Assembly: GCA_050250895.1 (NCBI GenBank)
Contig: JBFWNU010000008.1
Span: forward strand, 160,001-224,000
Reading direction: 5' to 3'
DNA from: Vulcanimicrobiota bacterium
GTDB taxonomy: Bacteria > Vulcanimicrobiota > Xenobia > Xenobiales > JADMJV01
DNA: 64,000 nt
The position numbers and the translations under genes are program-made. The notes below the pieces were generated by a model, which ran no database searches, had not been told where the DNA came from, and saw only the letters and a list, made by a program, of their open reading frames with translations. This document shows positions 2,199 to 16,685 of the stretch, in pieces (the first letter of the stretch is position 1; each line of letters opens with the position of its first letter).

Positions 2199-2498
2199 AC
2201 TCGACGCTTCGGCGAGGAGGCTCGCGACCTTCTTAGCGGCGTCGGGTTTTTGCGGACGGTTTACGCGGCTGCTGCCCCTGCCGGGTGGTCAGCAATCCCA
2301 CCGGCAGGACCTCGGGGGCGGGCGTGGGCGTGGTGGGCAGCTTTTTCTTGGGTTTGGGAGCGATGGTGGGACGCTCGGACGAGCACGCGACTCCGTCGGC
2401 CAGGACCTGGTATTGCATCGTTCTCGTAATCATCCAGGCTCAGGATAACAGCTGTCACTTATTCTGTCAACAGTTTTCGTGTCAGACTGTCAAAGAAG

Positions 2499-3077
2499 GG
2501 GAGACGGCGCTGACGCGCGGAGATTTCGGCCTGACGGCCGACGGGGAGCGCCGACTTCGTCGGCGGGAGGGAGCCGGCGCTGGCGCGCGGAGATTTCGGC
2601 CTGCGGCCGACAGGGAGCGCCGACTTCGTCGGCGGGTGAGGAGCCGGCGCTGACGCGCGGAGATTTCGGCCTGCGGCCGACAGGGAGAGCGGCTGACGCC
2701 GCTGGAAGGAGCCGGCGCTGCGCGCGGAGATTTCGGCCTGCGGCCGACAGGGAGCGCCGACTTCGTCGGCGGGTGACCTTTTCCCGAACTGAGCGACAGC
2801 TCAGTTCGCTCCTTCCCGGCCCGAAGGGCCGCTCCTTATCCCTCGAGCGAAGCAAGAGCTCCTTCTCCCGAACTGAGCGACAGCTCAGTTCGCTCCTCTC
2901 CCGGCCCGAAGGGCCGCTCCTTATCCCTCGAGCGAAGCAAGAGCTCCTTCTCCCGACTGAGCGACAGCTCAGTCGCTCCTCTCCCGGCCCGAAGGGCCGC
3001 TCCTTATCCCTCGAGCGAAGCAAGAGCTCCTTCTCCCGAACTGAGCGACAGCTCAGTTCGCTCCTCTCCCGCGAGGG
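2499..3077. repeat. Bipartite hairpin array 1: four ~70-bp units with GGAG linkers, then ~3.3 units of 83-85 bp with CTCC linkers
   Basis: Left units start near 2500/2570/2640/2708 with hairpins TCGGCC-tgc-GGCCGA and CGCCGAC-ttc-GTCGGCG. Right units start at 2785/2869/2954/3037 with CGAACTGAGC-gaca-GCTCAGTTCG and CGGCCC-gaa-GGGCCG. Confidence 0.95.
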
Positions 3078-4982
3078 CTAGACGGCTTGTTCAAAGGTGA
3101 TCGAGGCGGCTGACTGGTGGAACTCTTCCTGGCGTCGTTCGAGTTCGCTAGCCAGTTTCTCGAGCAGAGCCCGTTTCTGGTCGAGCTGGTTCTCTTGTTG
3201 TTCGAGGGTGACTACGTAGCGGGTGCGCAGACGACCCTCGTCGTGGGAAGGGCCCAGGCTCGACAGATTGGCCCGCAGGCGTTCCTGGTCGGCGGTGATG
3301 GTCTCGATCTCTTGACGGGTACGTTCTTGCTTTTGGTTGAGCTTGGTCAAGCTCTGGGCCAGTTGCATCAACTCTCGCAAGACCGGTTGCTGATCAGGCT
3401 CGATGTAGCCCCGCTCGATATAGACCTCGAGTTTGTCCGAGGTAAGATGGGCCAGTCTGACCACCTGGGATTGGGGGATGCGCTCGCTGATGGTGAACTC
3501 GGTGGTCGCGTTCGGTTGGAGCTTGACTTCGAAGCGGTAGCGGTCGACCGCCTTCGTGATAGGGGAGGGGGTTTTGTAGAGTTCGGCTCCCGAGCGGATG
3601 GGATGTTCCAGGATGCAGGTCTTGGCCCGGCCGTCCTTATTGAGGAAGCGGTGCAATCGGTGCTCCAAGAAGGCATAGTGCAGATGCAGTACCCCCTCCG
3701 AGGCCACCACCAGGTGGACATCCTCTTGCTTGTGCTGGGTCTCGCAGTCGACTTCGCAACCGAGGTCGACGGCATAGGGAATCAGGCGCACCTCGTCGGG
3801 GTGCAAAAGTGTGAGCATGGCCTCCCCGGCGTAGGTATCACCGTCATAGACCACGCACGGTCCGCCCTCGAGGGTGAGCCCGGTCGTGTTGGTGAATTCC
3901 AGGGCGGCAAAGGGATTGCGGGCCCTCTCCAGACGGTTGTAGAGGGTCACCCGACGCCCCTGGCCCGACTGGCTGACGATGGGGACCAGGGCGGATTGGT
4001 TGCGACGCACCGTGACCGGGTGCTCGAGCTTGTATTCGAAGAGTTCGCCCAGGCTCTGGGTCTGCACTTCCGGCGTGGGAGCCCCGCCGCCGCCTCGCTG
4101 TTCTCGCATCATCATTCCATCGAGCATGGCAGCCGAAGGCTTGCAAGCGATTCGAACGGCCTTATCCCGCGGGCTGGCTTCGTCTTCTTCTATCTCGACG
4201 GTCTCTCGCTGAACGTAGCGTGGTGAGTAGAGATCGTGCACGAACGACACGGGCAGACCGGCCACCAGCGACAGCTCGACATCTTCCCAGTCTTCATCGT
4301 GGGTGTTGTCGATCAGCGCCCAGCCTTGCAAAAAGGGTTGATCGCTCTCCTCCTCGGGCAGCGCCACTCGATAAGAGGTTTTCCAAACCGGGCATTCTAC
4401 CACATAGCTCAGCTGGATCTTGCGTTGGCCCTTGCCCCGAGCGTGGACCGACAGGGTCTTGGCGTCGCGCTTGGTGGCGGCCACCAGGGTTTCGAAGTAG
4501 AATTCGAGGTCTTTGCGGATATGGGGGTCGAGAAATTGTAGCTCACTGCACTCGGCCAGGTCGACGGTGTGCAGACGCCCCTCCTGATCGAGCAGGCTCA
4601 ACAGCTGGGCCTCGGTGACGCCGTCAGCCGAGCGGGTGGGCTGGGTCTGCACCCCTACCACCCGGCCGGCCAGTTGGCGCGTGCCCGCCTTCAGCTCGAG
4701 GCGGGCCCCGCGGATCTGGCCCAGCAAAGCTGCCCCGCCGCCCTTGGCGGGAATGTCGATAGCCACTTCTTGCAGCAGCTTTTCGACCGGCTTCTGAGCG
4801 TCATACGAGACCGAGTGGATGGTGCCACCGTCAAGGTCATAGAGGGTCAGCGACTTGAGCACGTCGTTCATCTCGAACGAGCGAAAGGTCAGCTTGAGTT
4901 CGTGATCCCCCTTCACCGGCTCGATTCTCTCGAAGTAGCCCACTCCGTGTTTGTACAGCACGACTCGCTTGATTCCGGCCAT
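3078..4982 (-). CDS. DUF4139 domain-containing protein
   Basis: RVVLYKHGVGYFER, MNDVLKSL, PVWKTSYR and LQGWALIDN...EDW motifs, C-terminal coiled coil, AGGAGG RBS upstream. Confidence 0.8.
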   Translation of the reverse strand: MAGIKRVVLYKHGVGYFERIEPVKGDHELKLTFRSFEMNDVLKSLTLYDLDGGTIHSVSYDAQKPVEKLLQEVAIDIPAKGGGAALLGQIRGARLELKAGTRQLAGRVVGVQTQPTRSADGVTEAQLLSLLDQEGRLHTVDLAECSELQFLDPHIRKDLEFYFETLVAATKRDAKTLSVHARGKGQRKIQLSYVVECPVWKTSYRVALPEEESDQPFLQGWALIDNTHDEDWEDVELSLVAGLPVSFVHDLYSPRYVQRETVEIEEDEASPRDKAVRIACKPSAAMLDGMMMREQRGGGGAPTPEVQTQSLGELFEYKLEHPVTVRRNQSALVPIVSQSGQGRRVTLYNRLERARNPFAALEFTNTTGLTLEGGPCVVYDGDTYAGEAMLTLLHPDEVRLIPYAVDLGCEVDCETQHKQEDVHLVVASEGVLHLHYAFLEHRLHRFLNKDGRAKTCILEHPIRSGAELYKTPSPITKAVDRYRFEVKLQPNATTEFTISERIPQSQVVRLAHLTSDKLEVYIERGYIEPDQQPVLRELMQLAQSLTKLNQKQERTRQEIETITADQERLRANLSSLGPSHDEGRLRTRYVVTLEQQENQLDQKRALLEKLASELERRQEEFHQSAASITFEQAV

Positions 4983-12415: not shown

Positions 12416-13696
12416 ATGAGTAAGCAAGAATTTATCCGAAACCTGGAAGCCCGCTGGCAAAGCGAGGCTCGCTGGAAAGGCATCCAGCGCCCCTATTCGG
12501 CCGAGGACGTCTGGCGTTTGCGCGGCTCGTTCGAGATCGAATACACCCTGGCCAAGATGGGTGCCGACCGACTCTGGAAGTTACTCCATAGCGAAGACTA
12601 CGTCAATGTGCTTTCGGCCGTGACCGGCAATCAGGCCATCCAGGAAGTGCAGGCCGGCCTGAAGGCCATTTATGTCAGTGGCTGGCAGGTGGCTGGCGAT
12701 ATGAACAACGCCATGCACATGTACCCGGACCAAAGCCTCTATCCCAGCAACAGTGTGCCCTTCCTGATCCGCCGCATCAACAATTCGCTGATGCGGGCCG
12801 ACCAGATCCACCACCTGGGTGGCGACACCTCGGTTCACTGGATGGCTCCCATCGTAGCCGACGCTGAAGCTGGTTTCGGTGGTCCCTTGCACGCCTTCGA
12901 GATCATGAAGGATATGATCGAAAATGGCGTAGCCGGTGTGCACTTTGAAGACCAGTTGGCCTCGGTCAAAAAATGCGGCCACCTGGGCGGCAAGGTGCTG
13001 GTGCCCACCCGCGAATTCGTGACCAAGCTCGTGGCTGCTCGCCTGGCCGCCGACGTCTGCGGCGTGGACACCATTCTCATTGCTCGCACGGATGCCGATA
13101 GCGCCGGTCTGCTAACCTCGGATGTCGACCCCTACGACCACGACTATATCACCAGTCAAGAGCGCACTCACGAGGGCTTCTTCCCAGTCAAGCCCGGAGT
13201 CGAGCAGGCCATCGCTCGCGGCCTGGCCTATGCTCCCTTCGCCGACCTGCTGTGGATGGAGACCTCGCACCCTGACCTCGGTCAGGCCCAGCAGTTCGCT
13301 GACGCCATCCACGCCAAATTCCCCGGGAAGATGCTGGCCTATAACTGCTCGCCGTCGTTCAACTGGCGCCTCAAGCTCTCTGAAGCCGAGTGCGAAGCCT
13401 TCCAGCGCGAGATCGGCAAGATGGGCTACAAGTTCCAGTTCGTCACTCTGTCGGCGTTCCACCAGCTCAACTACGGCATGTTCCGTCTGGCCCAGGGCTA
13501 CAAGGCCCGCGGCATGGCTGCCTACGCCGAGCTGCAGACGGCCGAGTTCGAAGCCGAGAAAGACGGCTACGAAGCCATTCGCCACCAACAGTTTGTGGGT
13601 ACCGGATATTTCGACGCCGTCACCGAGGTGGCCACCGGTGGCCAATCCTCGACCACGGCCATGGCCGGTTCGACCGAGGCCGAACAGTTTCACTAG
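12416..13696 (+). CDS. aceA: Isocitrate lyase
   Basis: Signature [11 protein letters not shown], plus [11 protein letters not shown] and GSTEAEQF. Confidence 0.98.
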
Positions 13697-14154
13697 GCGC
13701 TCGCTTCGCTCGCGCCGGGGAGCTGCGACGGCTTTGCCGTCGAGAAAGGAGCTGCGACGGCTTTGCCGTCGAGAAAGGAGCGCCGGCTGCGCCGTCGAGA
13801 GGGGAGCCGGGCTGCGCCCGGAGATGGGAGCGCTGGCTTCGCTTGCGCTCGCCAGCGAGGACGGCTTCGCCGTCGGCAGCCAGGCCCTTCGTGGCCGAAG
13901 GCCATCGAAGGTTTGCGGCCGCAGGCCGCCTATCTAATCCCTCGAAACGAGCGACAGCGAGTTTCGCTCCTATCTCGGAGCTTGCTCCGCTCCCATCTCA
14001 AGCCGAAGGCTGCTCCTTTCTCGGCCACGCAGTGGCCGCTTCCTTCTCGCGAGCAACGCGAGCGTCGGCTCCTTTCTCAGCCACGCAGTGGCCGCTCCCT
14101 TCTCGCGAGCGTAGCGAGCGTTGCTCCTTTTCTCGGCCACGCAGTGGCCGCTCC
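13696..14154. repeat. Bipartite hairpin array 2 (left flank of the four-helix-bundle gene)
   Basis: Hairpins separated by AGAnnGGAG (left half), then CTCCnnTCT (right half). The 66-bp core at 13905-13970 is identical to 14788-14853. Confidence 0.95.
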
Positions 14155-14161
14155 CTACTCG

Positions 14162-14536
14162 CTACTGGGCCTGAGGTTCTGCCAAGAGTCTGCGACTCAG
14201 GCCTGTCAAGATGCGTCGCATCTCGGCGATGCAGCCCATCACTTGCTTGAGGTCTTCGGGACGCAGATACTCGAGCTTCAAGCTAATCAGAAACAGAGTT
14301 TCCACCTCGGCCAGACTTCCCCGCGCGACTCCCACATGGTAAGCGAAGGTGCGAACGGATTCGCGCGCCTGCCCCTCGGCGAGGTTGGCGACGATGGAGA
14401 CACTAGCTCGACGAAGTTGGCTTGTCAGGCCAAACTGTTCATTGCTCGGGAGGCGGCTTGTCAGTCGATAGACGAGCGGAACGAATTCCATTCCCTTTTG
14501 CCAGGCTGCGAGTTGTTTGTATGGTAAATGATGCAT
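14162..14536 (-). CDS. Four-helix-bundle protein (23S rRNA IVP / TIGR02436 family, Avd-like fold)
   Basis: YKQLAAWQKGM, LPSNEQFGLTSQLRRASVSIVANLAEG and ARGSLAEVET signatures. Confidence 0.93.
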   Translation of the reverse strand: MHHLPYKQLAAWQKGMEFVPLVYRLTSRLPSNEQFGLTSQLRRASVSIVANLAEGQARESVRTFAYHVGVARGSLAEVETLFLISLKLEYLRPEDLKQVMGCIAEMRRILTGLSRRLLAEPQAQ

Positions 14537-14585
14537 CGAGGCTTCTTCGACCCGACGTTTGCCGCTCCCGTCGAACGAATGTCCA

Positions 14586-15005
14586 GAGCGACGGCTTTGC
14601 CGAGGATCGCCGGCTGCGCCGTCGAGACAGGAGCGCTCGCTGCGCTCGCGAGATGGGAGCGCTGGCTTCGCTTGCGCTCGCCAGCGAGGAGGGAGCGCCG
14701 GCTGCGCCGTCGAGACAGGAGCCGGGCTGCGCCCGGAGATGGGAGCACTGGCCTCGCTTGCGCTCGCCAGCGAGGACGGCTTCGCCGTCGAAGGTTTGCG
14801 GCCGCAGGCCGCCTATCTAATCCCTCGAAACGAGCGACAGCGAGTTTCGCTCCCATCTCGGAGCTCTGCTCCGGTCCCATCTCCGGCCGAAGGCCGGCTC
14901 CTTTCTCGGCCACGCAGTGGCCGCTCCCTTCTCGCGAGCGTAGCGAGCGTTGCTCCTTTCTCGGCCACGCAGTGGCCGCTCCCCTTCTCGCGAGCGTAGC
15001 GAGCG
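14586..15005. repeat. Bipartite hairpin array 3 (right flank of the four-helix-bundle gene), a direct-repeat variant of array 2
   Basis: Same modules (CGCCGGC-tgc-GCCGTCG, CCGGGC-tgc-GCCCGG, CGGCCAC-gca-GTGGCCG, CGCGAGC-gta-GCGAGCG) in different number and order, with the identical 66-bp core. Confidence 0.95.
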
Positions 15006-15089
15006 AACATGGCCCGAACGGGTGATTGGCAGGCCAGGGTGCCTCCCGTATGCTTGAAAGCAAATCTACCCTTGGGAGGCGCATTTCCT

Positions 15090-16322
15090 ATGGAAAGCGG
15101 ACACATCGCCTGGATGCTCTTGAGCACAGCGCTGGTGTTGTTGATGACGCCCGGTCTGGCCTTTTTCTACGGCGGGCTGGTGCGGTCCAAGAACACCCTT
15201 AACACCATGATGATGAGCTTCGCGGCGCTGGGTGTCATCGGGATTACCTGGGCGTTGGTCGGCTACAGTCTGGCCTTCGGTGGGGCCGGAAAGTGGCTCG
15301 GCGGAGGCGCCCATCTGCTCTTGCAGGGCGTTGACCTGCAAGCAAAAGGCTCCATTCCGCACCTATTGTTCATGGCTTTCCAGGGAACCTTCGCGGTGAT
15401 CACCGCAGCTCTCATTTCGGGCGCCATTGTGGGCAGGATGCGGTTTGCCCCGTACCTGGCCTTCATCACGCTGTGGAGTCTGCTGGTTTATGCTCCGCTT
15501 TGCCACTGGGTATGGGGTGAAGGTGGCTGGTTGGCCGGCCTGGGAGCCCTCGATTTCGCGGGCGGCACGGTGGTTCACATCAACGCCGGTGTAGCCGCTC
15601 TGGTATTGGCGCTGGTGTTGGGCCCCCGCAGCGAGCACGGGCGCCTGGCCATGCTCGCTCACAACGTTCCCTTCGTGATTCTCGGTTCGGCTATGCTGTG
15701 GTTCGGATGGTTCGGTTTCAACGGCGGCAGCGCCCTCGAGGCCAACGAACAGGGCGTGCTGGCTTTCGTCAACACCATGCTGGCTCCGATGGCAACCCTG
15801 GTGGTCTGGATGCTCACCGACCTGGTGCGTGATCACCGCGCCAATGCGGTGGGGGCGGCCACGGCGGTGGTGGTCGGATTGGTGGCCATTACCCCGGCGG
15901 CCGGGTTCGTGTCGCCTCTGTCAGCCATCCTGATCGGCGCTATTGCAACCTTCCCCAGCTATATTGCTATCCAGATGAAGCACAAATGGGCCCTCGATGA
16001 CTCGCTCGATGTGTTCGCTGGCCACGGGCTCGGTGGTATCGTAGGGGCAATGCTGACCGGTGTTTTTGCTAACTCGGCGTGGGGCGGCTCGGCGATGGGC
16101 GGGTTTACCCAGGTCGGCATCCAGTTCGCGGCCGTGCTGGCTGCCGCGGCTTACAGCGCTATCGCGTCGTTTGCCCTGATCAAGCTGGTAGGGGCCTTCA
16201 TGGCCTTGCGTCCTCAGGTTCAGGAAGAGGGTCTGGGACTCGACATCTCTCAGCACGGCGAAGAGGCCTACTCGACCGGCGAGGGCGCTATTCTCATTCT
16301 CTCTCGGAAAAAGGCCGGTTAG
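15090..16322 (+). CDS. amtB: Ammonium transporter
   Basis: LMTPGLAFFYGG, LDFAGGTVVHINAG, LWFGWFGFNGGS and DDSLDVFAGHG motifs. GGAGG RBS. Confidence 0.96.
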   Translation: MESGHIAWMLLSTALVLLMTPGLAFFYGGLVRSKNTLNTMMMSFAALGVIGITWALVGYSLAFGGAGKWLGGGAHLLLQGVDLQAKGSIPHLLFMAFQGTFAVITAALISGAIVGRMRFAPYLAFITLWSLLVYAPLCHWVWGEGGWLAGLGALDFAGGTVVHINAGVAALVLALVLGPRSEHGRLAMLAHNVPFVILGSAMLWFGWFGFNGGSALEANEQGVLAFVNTMLAPMATLVVWMLTDLVRDHRANAVGAATAVVVGLVAITPAAGFVSPLSAILIGAIATFPSYIAIQMKHKWALDDSLDVFAGHGLGGIVGAMLTGVFANSAWGGSAMGGFTQVGIQFAAVLAAAAYSAIASFALIKLVGAFMALRPQVQEEGLGLDISQHGEEAYSTGEGAILILSRKKAG

Positions 16323-16328
16323 GAATCT

Positions 16329-16685
16329 ATGAAGATGATTGTCGCAATAATCCGACCCGAGCAGTTGCCAGATGTCATGGAGGCGCTGTTCGAGGCTAAG
16401 GTGAGGGGGATCACGGTCAGCCGGGTCCAGGGCCATGGTGGCGAGACCGAACATGTCGAGACCTACCGCGGCAGCAGTGTGCGCGTGGGTCTGCACGAGA
16501 AGATCAAACTCGAGATCGGCGTTTCGGAGAGTTTCGTCGAGCCAACGGTCCAGGCTATTCTCAAGGCCGCACGCACAGGCCAGGTCGGAGATGGAAAGAT
16601 CTTCGTCTTGCCGGTCGAGCGGGTCTATCGCATCCGAACCGGGGAAGAGGACGAAGCAGCCGTGACTCCGGTTCCTGTTTGTTAA
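16329..16685 (+). CDS. glnK: P-II nitrogen regulatory protein (GlnK-like by context)
   Basis: MKMIVAIIRP, T-loop ETYRG, TGQVGDGKIFV and RIRTGE. Directly downstream of amtB. Confidence 0.88.
   Translation: MKMIVAIIRPEQLPDVMEALFEAKVRGITVSRVQGHGGETEHVETYRGSSVRVGLHEKIKLEIGVSESFVEPTVQAILKAARTGQVGDGKIFVLPVERVYRIRTGEEDEAAVTPVPVC

What the first reader, a model, noticed from the sequence alone, without database searches (positions are those of the whole stretch)
13696..15005. Four-helix-bundle (IVP/Avd-like) gene between two directly repeated modular hairpin arrays: candidate new mobile or nucleic-acid-processing cassette
Seen: a 124-aa TIGR02436-type gene sits between aceA and amtB, flanked by ~460-bp and ~420-bp arrays. 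Each array alternates a near-constant 9-nt linker (AGAnnGGAG on the left, CTCCnnTCT on the right) with variable hairpins. Both contain an identical 66-bp core (13905-13970 = 14788-14853) where polarity flips. Module number and order differ between the copies, so units appear to be gained, lost or shuffled one at a time. Established: this family is related in fold to DGR Avd, occurs in 23S rRNA intervening sequences and has no settled function. Inference: gene plus arrays form a cassette. Core-to-core recombination would release an 883-bp circle and leave a solo array resembling the one at 2.5-3.1 kb. The protein may bind the repeated units.
Basis: partly seen in the sequence, partly recalled or inferred. 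Interest (0 to 1): 0.85.

Follow-up and report, generated by a model that had tools for sequence, protein, structure and literature searches.

The report
Four-helix-bundle gene within dispersed hairpin arrays
A small gene of the family first seen inside ribosomal-RNA "intervening sequences" was inserted between two metabolic genes together with hairpin-repeat arrays that also fill about 120 other gaps between genes in this genome, which ties an unexplained protein family to an unexplained kind of repeated DNA.

Summary
A 124-aa PF05635/TIGR02436 gene (14162-14536, minus) lies between aceA and amtB. It is flanked by two ~465-bp arrays of 24-26-nt modules: an 11-nt linker GAGAnGGGAGC plus a variable GC hairpin. 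Polarity flips at a 66-bp core that occurs exactly twice in the genome.

- The same-genus relative has an empty 167-bp aceA-amtB spacer.
- All 3 four-helix-bundle genes of the genome sit between such arrays, against 2 of 6068 other genes.
- The arrays are not private to the cassette. They form about 120 intergenic loci (40.6 kb), mostly gene-less, often starting at stop codons.
- The linker equals 1.5 units of the GGGAGAT heptamer that forms the complementary arms of the nearest relative's cassette. That heptamer is dispersed in that relative's genome only.
- In 78 loci from many phyla, the flanks of such genes are inverted 7-nt-periodic repeats.

My reading is an IVS-like cassette whose arm repeat has become a genome-wide, REP-like family, probably the protein's binding sites. 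Binding, RNA processing and the 883-bp circle are untested.

This scan had already noted heptamer-armed cassettes of this family on other DNA. The hairpin-module variant and the co-occurrence test are new here.

The parts
12416..13696 (+). aceA (isocitrate lyase), left host gene; array A starts at the base after its stop codon
   Evidence: NF011645 730.9 bits; ORF
13697..13904 (.). array A, '+' half: hairpins separated by purine-rich linkers (AGAAAGGAG, AGAGGGGAG, AGATGGGAG), then a pre-core hairpin
13905..13970 (.). 66-bp core A, point of polarity flip; two hairpins around an AT-richer 13-mer
   Evidence: exact duplicate, only 2 copies in genome; alignment of 7 related copies
13967..14161 (.). 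array A, '-' half (CTCCnnTCT linkers); ends 0 nt from the stop codon of the four-helix-bundle gene
14162..14536 (-). four-helix-bundle gene, 124 aa (PF05635 / TIGR02436)
   Evidence: PDB 2gsc E 4e-24
14537..14603 (-). leader with conserved hairpin motif CTGGACATTCGTTCGACGGGAG...GTCGAAG (motif at 14565-14586), shared by all three paralogues
14604..14787 (.). array B, '+' half; missing in the related strain seen in public runs
14788..14853 (.). 66-bp core B
14850..15005 (.). array B, '-' half; followed by the native spacer (homologous to the relative's spacer from about 15000)
15093..16322 (+). amtB (ammonium transporter), right host gene (ATG at 15093 aligns with the relative's start; the ORF lister starts at 15009)
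2495..3078 (.). solo array of the same family ('+' modules then '-' modules in 62-nt super-repeats), ending at the stop codon of the minus-strand gene 3078-4982; no 66-bp core

Best explanation
This is a local, elaborated form of the IVS-type four-helix-bundle cassette: a PF05635 gene enclosed by complementary repeat arms. The cassette entered the aceA-amtB spacer after the split from the same-genus relative.

The arms here are not plain heptamers. They are 24-26-nt modules made of an 11-nt purine-rich linker GAGAnGGGAGC and a variable GC hairpin with a C-TGC/TTC/TTT-G loop. The linker equals 1.5 units of GGGAGAT, the arm heptamer of the closest relative's cassette.

Each array reads [+ modules]-core-[- modules]. 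Because of this, the two arrays are both direct and inverted repeats. The 1.3-kb unit can fold, as RNA or as single-stranded DNA, in either of two ways: one long stem with the gene in the loop, or two array hairpins plus a shorter stem of roughly 55 base pairs around the gene.

The same modules have multiplied into about 120 gene-less intergenic arrays that abut stop codons.

My committed mechanism has three parts.
1. The linker repeats are the cis sites of the four-helix-bundle protein, a pentamer judged only by its likeness to 2GSC. The protein would then be the trans factor of a dispersed repeat family. This is the logic of RAYT/REP, not its chemistry.
2. The paired arms insulate or process the transcript, as RNase III does at rRNA intervening sequences.
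3. Arrays grow by local tandem duplication of 2-3-module blocks, and the gene moves between arrays by homologous recombination.

Shown here: the anatomy, the insertion against an empty site, the gene-array association, the co-occurrence across genomes, and the ability to fold. Inferred: binding, processing, and how the gene and arrays move.
For: Association. All 3 of 3 four-helix-bundle genes have arrays on both sides, against 2 of 6068 other genes. All three share one layout, [+ core -] leader-gene [+ core -], and one leader hairpin. Of the 7 copies of the core element above 86% identity, 5 flank two of these genes, always antisense to the gene. The two proteins are only 55% identical, yet their flanks are 87-88% identical.

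Empty site. It is found in G001.

Co-occurrence. Among G000 plus 40 relatives, TIGR02436 genes occur in G000, G018 and, as broken pieces, G030. The hairpin arrays give 124 BLAST matches in G000 and none in 20 of 20 relatives. The GGGAGAT array pattern gives 535 matches in G018 against 6 for the control, and 10 or fewer in each of the other 40 genomes.

Link between linker and arms. The G018 cassette has 34-nt arms, 91% complementary, made of GGGAGAT units. The G000 linkers GAGATGGGAGC, GAGAGGGGAGC and GAGAAGGGAGC account for 334 of 724 linkers.

Generality. In 78 loci from many phyla the inverted-flank score has a median of 39, against 18 for direct flanks and 18 for displaced flanks. A score of 40 or more is reached by 36 of 78 inverted, 5 of 78 direct and 0 of 69 displaced comparisons. 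Of the 48 best arms, 46 have a period that is a multiple of 7 and 44 are purine-first.

Second hairpin-module case. A Tepidiformaceae genome (G041) has 1 gene, arms of linker plus hairpin, and 25 arm matches in all; away from the gene's own arms these lie at roughly ten gene-less places, several starting at stop codons. Arm units are also dispersed in G042 (447 against 19) and G044 (36 against 11).

Fold. In the minimum-energy fold of 13697-15005, array A pairs with array B around the gene on the plus strand (-734.8 kcal/mol). On the gene strand, 14093-14167 pairs with 14661-14584.

Hairpins are real. 73 of 203 distinct spacers are perfect hairpins, against a mean of 7.9 and a maximum of 16 in 200 shuffles. 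They use 35 distinct stems.
Against: There is no direct evidence that the protein binds anything, and it has no known catalytic domain.

The polarity next to the gene is reversed compared with the usual purine-first arms: the gene sits between two [+ core -] units, not inside one.

The '+' and '-' halves of one array are no more complementary to each other than to the halves of other arrays, in 13 units tested. The units are therefore not matched palindromes.

Arrays also flank ordinary genes and a DUF433-DUF5615 pair.

Single-mismatch stems show no excess of G:U over A:C (4 against 6, of 21). Nothing therefore points specifically to selection on the RNA.

The co-occurrence rests on two independent lineages within the order plus four unrelated genomes that I chose myself. 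Genomes without the gene were tested only for these two repeat families, not for any dispersed repeat. Many of the relatives are fragmented assemblies in which repeats may be missing.

No RNA data were available.
Confidence: 0.5

Rival explanations
1. Passive association. The arrays are an autonomous REP/STRR-like intergenic repeat of the host. They grow by slippage and unequal crossing-over at 3' ends and serve host mRNA 3'-end formation or nothing at all. Small foreign genes, including the four-helix-bundle genes, merely land or persist in array-rich gaps. The protein does not act on the arrays.
For: About 117 of about 120 array loci have no four-helix-bundle gene. Arrays lie between genes and are biased to 3' ends: 40 convergent, 68 tandem and 7 divergent contexts. 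At 55 abutted 3' ends the sense polarity is '+' in 40. Tandem super-repeats of 50-62 nt show local duplication. Other cargo also lies between arrays: a DUF433-DUF5615 pair, an LLM-type oxidoreductase-like ORF and unknown ORFs.
Against: It does not explain several results. All 3 of 3 genes are flanked on both sides (p 2.7e-10). The linker matches the arm heptamer of the nearest relative's cassette. In each of two genera, only the genome that has the gene has the repeat family. The same pairing recurs in G041, G042 and G044.
Confidence: 0.28
2. The gene plus one array is a mobile unit that excises as an 883-bp circle by recombination between the two 66-bp cores. It re-integrates into solo arrays, leaving or using a solo array each time.
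For: Direct repeats flank the gene at both C8 and C6 in the same relative orientation. A Campbell-type integration of a circle into an existing [+ core -] array would give exactly the observed [+ core -] gene [+ core -]. In public runs of a related strain the gene is about 98% identical (8 differences in 467, 7 in 389, 8 in 329, 6 in 337). The aceA and amtB parts are 92.8% (20 in 277) and 91.8% (45 in 549) identical. That difference fits recent exchange of the gene.
Against: No junction was seen, and contigs cannot show one. The core-bearing element has only 7 close copies, so most solo arrays, including the one at 2495-3078, lack the core. The C8 and C6 genes are 55% identical, so they are not recent copies of each other. 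It is not shown that the contigs compared come from one organism or one locus.
Confidence: 0.12
3. The arrays are RNA sponges or 3'-UTR regulatory sites for a host RNA-binding protein such as CsrA. They expose GGA-containing single-stranded linkers between hairpins. The four-helix-bundle gene would be a bystander.
For: The linkers carry GGGAG/AGGAG between hairpins. A CsrA gene is present (75.5 bits). The arrays have a polarity bias relative to transcription.
Against: Both polarities occur in most large arrays, so half of every array would present the complement. The 20 relatives searched with the array as BLAST query gave no match; I did not search them for CsrA. This reading gives no account of the link to the four-helix-bundle genes or to heptamer arms elsewhere.
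Confidence: 0.05

Closest known systems
ORF-bearing intervening sequences (IVS) of 23S rRNA (Coxiella burnetii, Leptospira, Xanthomonas; PMC4990558, passages read)
   Same: Both carry a gene of the same family (S23p = PF05635). [quoted passage not shown] Both are patchy among relatives and have lower G+C than the host (gene 56.5% against 63%).
   Different: This one is not in an rRNA gene. It lies antisense between two protein-coding genes. Its arms are about 465 bp and built of hairpin modules, not a 28-bp stem. The arm units are dispersed genome-wide. RNase III excision is untested.
REP/BIME elements with their RAYT transposase
   Same: Both consist of short extragenic palindromic units, clustered in arrays between genes and biased to 3' ends. 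In both, a few gene copies are themselves flanked by the repeat.
   Different: No Y1/RAYT gene is in the genome. The associated protein is a 124-aa helical bundle with no known nuclease fold. The units carry a constant linker and variable stems, the reverse of REPs.
DGR accessory protein Avd (bAvd; PMC10053308, passages read)
   Same: Distantly related four-helix-bundle family. The 2GSC relative is a pentamer, like Avd.
   Different: NF033474 scores 21.7 bits against a cut-off of 80, and PF22296 scores 18.6-26 against 40. No reverse transcriptase is in the genome, and no template/variable repeat pair is present.
Heptamer-armed four-helix-bundle cassettes noted earlier by this scan (e1-845887, e1-717041, e1-3914238 and others; unpublished AI notes)
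   Same: Same gene family. The arms are complementary and start at the gene borders. The cassette is present or absent among relatives. I reproduced the pattern independently on 78 loci.
   Different: The period here is 24-26 nt with a hairpin in every unit. The polarity next to the gene is reversed. Each arm is itself a [+ core -] unit. Expansion reaches about 120 loci.
Cyanobacterial STRR heptanucleotide repeats (recalled; no paper on them was read here)
   Same: Short tandem repeats dispersed between genes, of unknown origin.
   Different: As far as I recall, STRRs have not been tied to a protein family. They also lack the hairpin modules seen here.

Membership tests
PF05635 / TIGR02436 four-helix-bundle (23S rRNA IVS protein) family | Profile score above the curated cut-off over the full length | tested here: met
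   PF05635 109.5 bits (cut-off 33.8), residues 7-112. TIGR02436 103.3 bits (cut-off 24). The two paralogues score 101.7 and 117.4 bits.
PF05635 / TIGR02436 four-helix-bundle (23S rRNA IVS protein) family | Four-helix-bundle fold assembling into a pentamer | tested here: inconclusive
   Sequence match to 2gsc (E 4e-24; profile E 2e-34; 5 chains in the entry) and to 2rld. The pentamer is stated in PMC4990558 (passage). Structure prediction could not be run: the queue was full.
DGR Avd | Score above the NF033474 / PF22296 cut-off | tested here: not met
   21.7 bits against 80. 18.6-26 bits against 40.
DGR Avd | Adjacent reverse transcriptase | tested here: not met
   No PF00078 match in the genome at E <= 0.001; the genome is 99.6% complete.
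ORF-bearing 23S rRNA intervening sequence | Carries an S23p/PF05635 ORF | tested here: met
ORF-bearing 23S rRNA intervening sequence | Bordered by complementary sequences that form a stem enclosing the ORF | tested here: met
   The minimum-energy folds pair 14093-14167 with 14661-14584 on both strands. On the plus strand the whole of array A pairs with the whole of array B. The inverted flank score is 48, against 19 direct and 16 displaced. This is prediction only.
ORF-bearing 23S rRNA intervening sequence | Inserted in a 23S rRNA helix | tested here: not met
   It lies between aceA and amtB. Rfam finds no rRNA there.
ORF-bearing 23S rRNA intervening sequence | Excised from the transcript by RNase III | not testable with these tools
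   No RNA run was listed.
REP/BIME-RAYT system | Clustered extragenic palindromic units | tested here: met
   142 intervals in 120 loci, almost no overlap with called genes. 73 of 203 distinct spacers are perfect hairpins, against 7.9 in shuffles.
REP/BIME-RAYT system | A Y1 (IS200/IS605-like) RAYT gene flanked by the repeats | tested here: not met
   No PF01797 match in the genome. The control search found it in 6 of 14 well-known genomes.
Heptamer-armed four-helix-bundle cassette (class noted by this scan) | Complementary arms abutting the start and stop of a PF05635 gene | tested here: met
   The array ends 0 nt from the stop codon. The arm begins about 47 nt before the start codon, after the leader.
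Heptamer-armed four-helix-bundle cassette (class noted by this scan) | Arms are tandem 7-nt repeats | tested here: not met
   Period peaks at 24 and 26 nt. Only the linker is heptamer-like: GAGATGGGAG equals 1.5 units of GGGAGAT.
Heptamer-armed four-helix-bundle cassette (class noted by this scan) | Present or absent between close relatives at an otherwise conserved site | tested here: met
   G001 has aceA, a 167-bp spacer and amtB.

The most novel reading that the evidence does not exclude
Four-helix-bundle (PF05635) proteins are the trans-acting partners of a previously unrecognised class of dispersed bacterial repeats. Each gene subfamily brings its own short repeat unit. The pentamer binds tandem units; arms in other phyla have a median length of 31 nt, about 4-5 heptamers. 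The unit then spreads to gene-less intergenic sites. This would explain both the 23S rRNA intervening sequences and heptamer or hairpin repeat families such as the one here.
Probability: 0.3. Interest if true: 0.88.

Novelty: new variant of a known kind. Interest (0 to 1): 0.72.

Why it matters
PF05635/TIGR02436 is a very common bacterial family with solved structures and no known function. Short tandem and palindromic intergenic repeats are equally common and mostly unexplained.

This genome shows the two together in an unusually readable form. There are three genes, one repeat grammar, about 120 arrays and an empty site in a relative. In each of two genera of the order, only the genome that has the gene has the repeat family.

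If the dependency is real, it gives the protein family a testable function: binding its own arm repeat. It also gives the repeats an origin. It would further explain why such genes can sit inside operons and rRNA genes without harm.

If the dependency is not real, the arrays are still a well-defined new REP-like family in a little-studied phylum.

Tried and rejected
Known RNA families. Rfam on 13500-15200 gave only sub-threshold hits: MIR1437 at 33.9 bits against a gathering score of 168, on both strands, which reflects only a long hairpin, and M23 at 19.7 against 41.2.

Defence systems. PADLOC gave 0 families for the three proteins.

Transposase or retroelement partners. No Y1_Tnp and no RVT_1 were found. 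The 2 GIY-YIG hits, at C1:966477 and C1:530819, lie 9-17 kb from the nearest array.

Metagenome scans. The 23-nt core word gave 0 hits. A two-linker pattern gave 123 or more hits, but 0 of the 78 fetched loci encode a four-helix-bundle gene and many are low-GC or coding repeats. The pattern is unspecific and says nothing either way.

RNA evidence. No RNA holder was listed.

Circle or deletion junction. The joints are explained by other array loci or by module differences of a related strain. Contigs cannot show a circle.

'Matched palindrome' idea for solo arrays. Rejected for G000: the complementarity between the two halves of one array is not above that between halves of different arrays, in 13 units. 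It does hold for one G041 locus.

RNA-wobble test. G:U 4 against A:C 6, of 21 stems. Uninformative.

G043 pattern count. The pattern reads the same backwards, so the control equals the test (16 and 23 in both) and gives no background estimate.

Structure prediction. Not sent four times because the queue was full, so no fold search was run. A 5-sequence profile did not reach Avd chains in the PDB.

Literature. Two full-text searches found no paper describing PF05635 genes with repeat arms outside rRNA (terms TIGR02436, PF05635, 'four helix bundle protein', S23p, 'short tandemly repeated repetitive', 'heptamer repeats', 'intervening sequence', Avd). Subscription journals are not covered by these searches.
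Full report
WHAT IS THERE

The window is G000:C8:160001-224000 of a 9.5-Mb, 63% G+C genome in 17 contigs. Earlier notes of this scan call the organism Eremiobacterota/Vulcanimicrobiota; I did not check this.

aceA (12416-13696, +) and amtB (15093-16322, +) are separated by 1.4 kb. In the middle, on the minus strand, lies a 124-aa ORF (14162-14536). It scores 109.5 bits on PF05635 (cut-off 33.8) and 103.3 bits on TIGR02436 (cut-off 24). It stays far below the Avd models, at 21.7 against 80 and 18.6 against 40. Its closest solved relative is 2gsc (E 4e-24), deposited with five chains.

On either side are arrays, 13697-14161 and 14537-15005. Seventeen of the window's 24 exact AGANNGGAG words lie in them, in four strict polarity blocks (+, -, +, -). 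The chance expectation is about 13 for the whole 64 kb. Polarity flips at a 66-bp core that is identical in both arrays and found nowhere else in the genome.

GRAMMAR OF THE ARRAYS

Iterative BLAST from the arrays of two loci gathers 142 intervals in 120 loci, 40.6 kb or 0.43% of the genome. Several sit at contig ends.

They hold 724 linkers and 505 linker-to-linker modules. The period peaks at 24 and 26 nt. The commonest linkers are GAGAGGGGAGC (155), GAGAAGGGAGC (90) and GAGATGGGAGC (89).

Between linkers sit short GC hairpins. Of 203 distinct spacers, 73 are perfect hairpins by a strict rule, against a mean of 7.9 and a maximum of 16 in 200 shuffles. They use 35 different stems and mostly TGC, TTC or TTT loops. 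So the linker and loop are constant and the stem varies.

Arrays grow locally. 50-nt and 62-nt super-repeats of two or three modules are visible.

A crude gene caller of my own found 6068 genes covering 76% of the genome. It uses a GC3 rule and misses small and foreign genes. With it, the arrays are almost wholly intergenic. They lie between convergent genes (40) or tandem genes (68) far more often than between divergent genes (7), and 5 are at contig ends. Many begin within a few bases of a stop codon. At 55 abutted 3' ends the polarity in the sense of the gene is '+' in 40 and '-' in 15. At 14 abutted 5' ends it is '-' in 11.

LINK TO THE GENE

The genome has three TIGR02436 genes: C8 (this one), C6 and C2. 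All three have arrays within 100 nt on both sides, against 2 of 6068 called genes (Fisher p 2.7e-10).

All three show the same order in gene sense: [+ modules, core, - modules], leader, gene, [+ modules, core...]. All share a leader hairpin (CTGGACAttCGTTCGACGGGAg ... GTCGAAG) about 50 nt before the start. A fourth, solo copy of that leader lies before a comM/yifB-like gene at C1:2716962.

The core-bearing element has seven copies above 86% identity. Five of them flank the C8 and C6 genes, always antisense to the gene. The C8 and C6 proteins are only 55% identical while their flanks are 87-88% identical. The flanks are therefore younger, or homogenised, relative to the genes.

INSERTION AND STRAINS

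In the same-genus genome G001 (aceA 89% identical), aceA is followed after 167 bp by amtB. There is no gene and no array, and the last part of that spacer is homologous to window 15000-15092. So 13697 to about 14999 is an insertion here or a deletion there.

Contigs of four public DNA runs from sludge metagenomes hold a related strain.
- The aceA end is 92.8% identical (20 differences in 277) and the amtB start 91.8% (45 in 549).
- The four-helix-bundle gene is about 98% identical (8 in 467 plus one 7-nt insertion, 7 in 389, 8 in 329, 6 in 337).
- In that strain the array after aceA is two modules (57 nt) shorter.
- The '+' half of array B is missing, so the gene's leader runs straight into a pre-core and core.

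This shows module gain and loss, and a gene that is better conserved than its neighbours. I cannot show that these contigs are one locus or one organism.

RELATIVES AND OTHER PHYLA

Among G000 and 40 relatives, the family model finds genes only in G000, G018 (2 genes) and G030 (3 broken pieces with AT-rich heptamer flanks).

The G018 gene closest to ours (47% identical) is enclosed by 34-nt arms, 91% complementary, made of GGGAGAT-type heptamers. The G000 linker GAGATGGGAG is exactly a 10-nt window of such a heptamer run.

That heptamer pattern has 535 matches in G018 against 6 for the reversed control. It has 10 or fewer matches, like the control, in each of the other 40 genomes, including four of G018's own genus. 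The hairpin arrays have 124 BLAST matches in G000 and none in 20 relatives. So within this order, each of the two genomes with intact genes has a dispersed repeat family built from the arm unit of its gene. The genomes without the gene have neither family.

A sample of 80 loci from genome contigs, covering many phyla, reproduces what earlier notes of this scan claimed.
- In 78 loci with enough flank, the inverted-repeat score of the flanks has a median of 39. The median is 18 for direct comparison and 18 for flanks displaced by 500 nt.
- A score of 40 or more is reached by 36 of 78 inverted, 5 of 78 direct and 0 of 69 displaced comparisons.
- Of the 48 best arms, 46 have a period that is a multiple of 7, and 44 have the purine-rich arm first.
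- The strictly 7-periodic runs have a median length of 31 nt on both sides.

One locus of the 80 (L085, a Tepidiformaceae chromosome) has arms of linker plus GC hairpin like G000, even sharing the spacer GCTCGCTTCGCTCGC. That genome has one gene. It has 25 arm matches in all; away from the gene's own arms these lie at roughly ten gene-less places, several of the form [+ core -] starting at a stop codon, and one a near-perfect palindrome.

In two further genomes the arm unit is likewise dispersed: G042 447 against 19, and G044 36 against 11, many as close +/- pairs. For G043 the control was uninformative.

FOLDING

Each array is quasi-palindromic in grammar, so the two arrays are inverted as well as direct repeats. 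The minimum-energy fold of the plus strand of 13697-15005 is one long imperfect stem. Array A pairs with array B and the gene is in the loop (-734.8 kcal/mol). The gene-sense strand prefers two array hairpins plus a stem, 14093-14167 with 14661-14584, around the gene (-720.0 kcal/mol). These are predictions.

In G000 any '+' half pairs about as well with any '-' half. The score within one array is not above the score across arrays in 13 units.

READING

The gene is a member of the IVS-protein family. The unit has the build of an ORF-bearing intervening sequence, with the gene inside complementary arms, but it lies outside any rRNA gene.

It is not a DGR part: the Avd models are failed and the genome has no reverse transcriptase. 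It is not a REP/RAYT system: there is no Y1 gene. It does work like one in logic, with few gene copies flanked by the repeat that peoples the genome.

I take the linker repeats to be the protein's cis sites, the arms to insulate or process the transcript, and the arrays to spread by duplication and recombination. I put this at about 0.5.

The main rival, at about 0.28, is that the arrays are autonomous host repeats and the genes only lodge among them. A CsrA-type sponge reading is weak, about 0.05.

Against my reading stand several facts: the lack of any binding evidence; the reversed polarity next to the gene in this genome; the presence of other cargo between arrays (a DUF433-DUF5615 pair); the small number of independent lineages tested; and the fragmented state of many relatives.

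NOVELTY

Two full-text searches found only two relevant papers: the Coxiella IVS paper (PMC4990558, passages read) and a DGR survey noting that PF05635 resembles Avd (PMC10053308, passages read). Neither describes repeat arms outside rRNA or dispersed gene-less arrays.

This scan has noted heptamer-armed cassettes before on other DNA. New here are the hairpin-module variant with a second example in another phylum, the genome-wide census, the co-occurrence test within one order, and the strain comparison.

Noticed in passing
G000:C9:188785-190948 (locus L241): A DUF433 (68.3 bits) plus DUF5615/PIN-like (53.6 bits) gene pair, the look of a toxin-antitoxin pair, lies between two [+ -] arrays in the same layout as the four-helix-bundle genes.
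   Followed up: partly
G000:C1:2716940-2716985 (locus L242): A solo copy of the four-helix-bundle leader hairpin (1 mismatch in 22) sits directly after a stop codon and before a comM/yifB-like ATPase gene, with no array and no four-helix-bundle gene. It may be a relic or an independent module.
   Followed up: partly
G000:C1:113744-114577, C1:520160-521054 and C1:3737045-3738274: Between some '+' and '-' array halves lie other tandem repeats (units of about 204 bp, a GC-71% repeat of about 220 bp, and about 650 bp) instead of a core or a gene.
   Followed up: no
G000 contig ends: C4:20-320, C5:1-342, C6:69-468, C2:984422-984708, C4:762984-763158: Five contig ends stop inside arrays, so this repeat family is what breaks the assembly. 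The census of 120 loci is therefore a lower bound.
   Followed up: no
loci L026-L105: Strictly 7-periodic arm runs beside four-helix-bundle genes cluster around 30-31 nt (median 31 on both sides), about 4-5 units. This would fit one unit per subunit of a pentamer. The range is wide (17-136).
   Followed up: partly
L004 1465-1500 (G018:C21): The second G018 gene sits between hisF- and hisH-like genes. It has GTTGAGA x4 only downstream, and the repeat is translated as the C-terminal tail of the ORF.
   Followed up: no
window 13000-15600, public runs X1-X4: In a related strain the four-helix-bundle gene is about 98% identical while the adjoining aceA and amtB parts are about 92-93% identical. That is either recent exchange of the gene or unusual constraint on its DNA.
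   Followed up: partly
window 16329-16685: A PII (GlnB/GlnK-like) ORF follows amtB, judged by eye from the translation. It is the usual amtB-glnK pair, so the cassette sits just upstream of a nitrogen-regulated operon.
   Followed up: no
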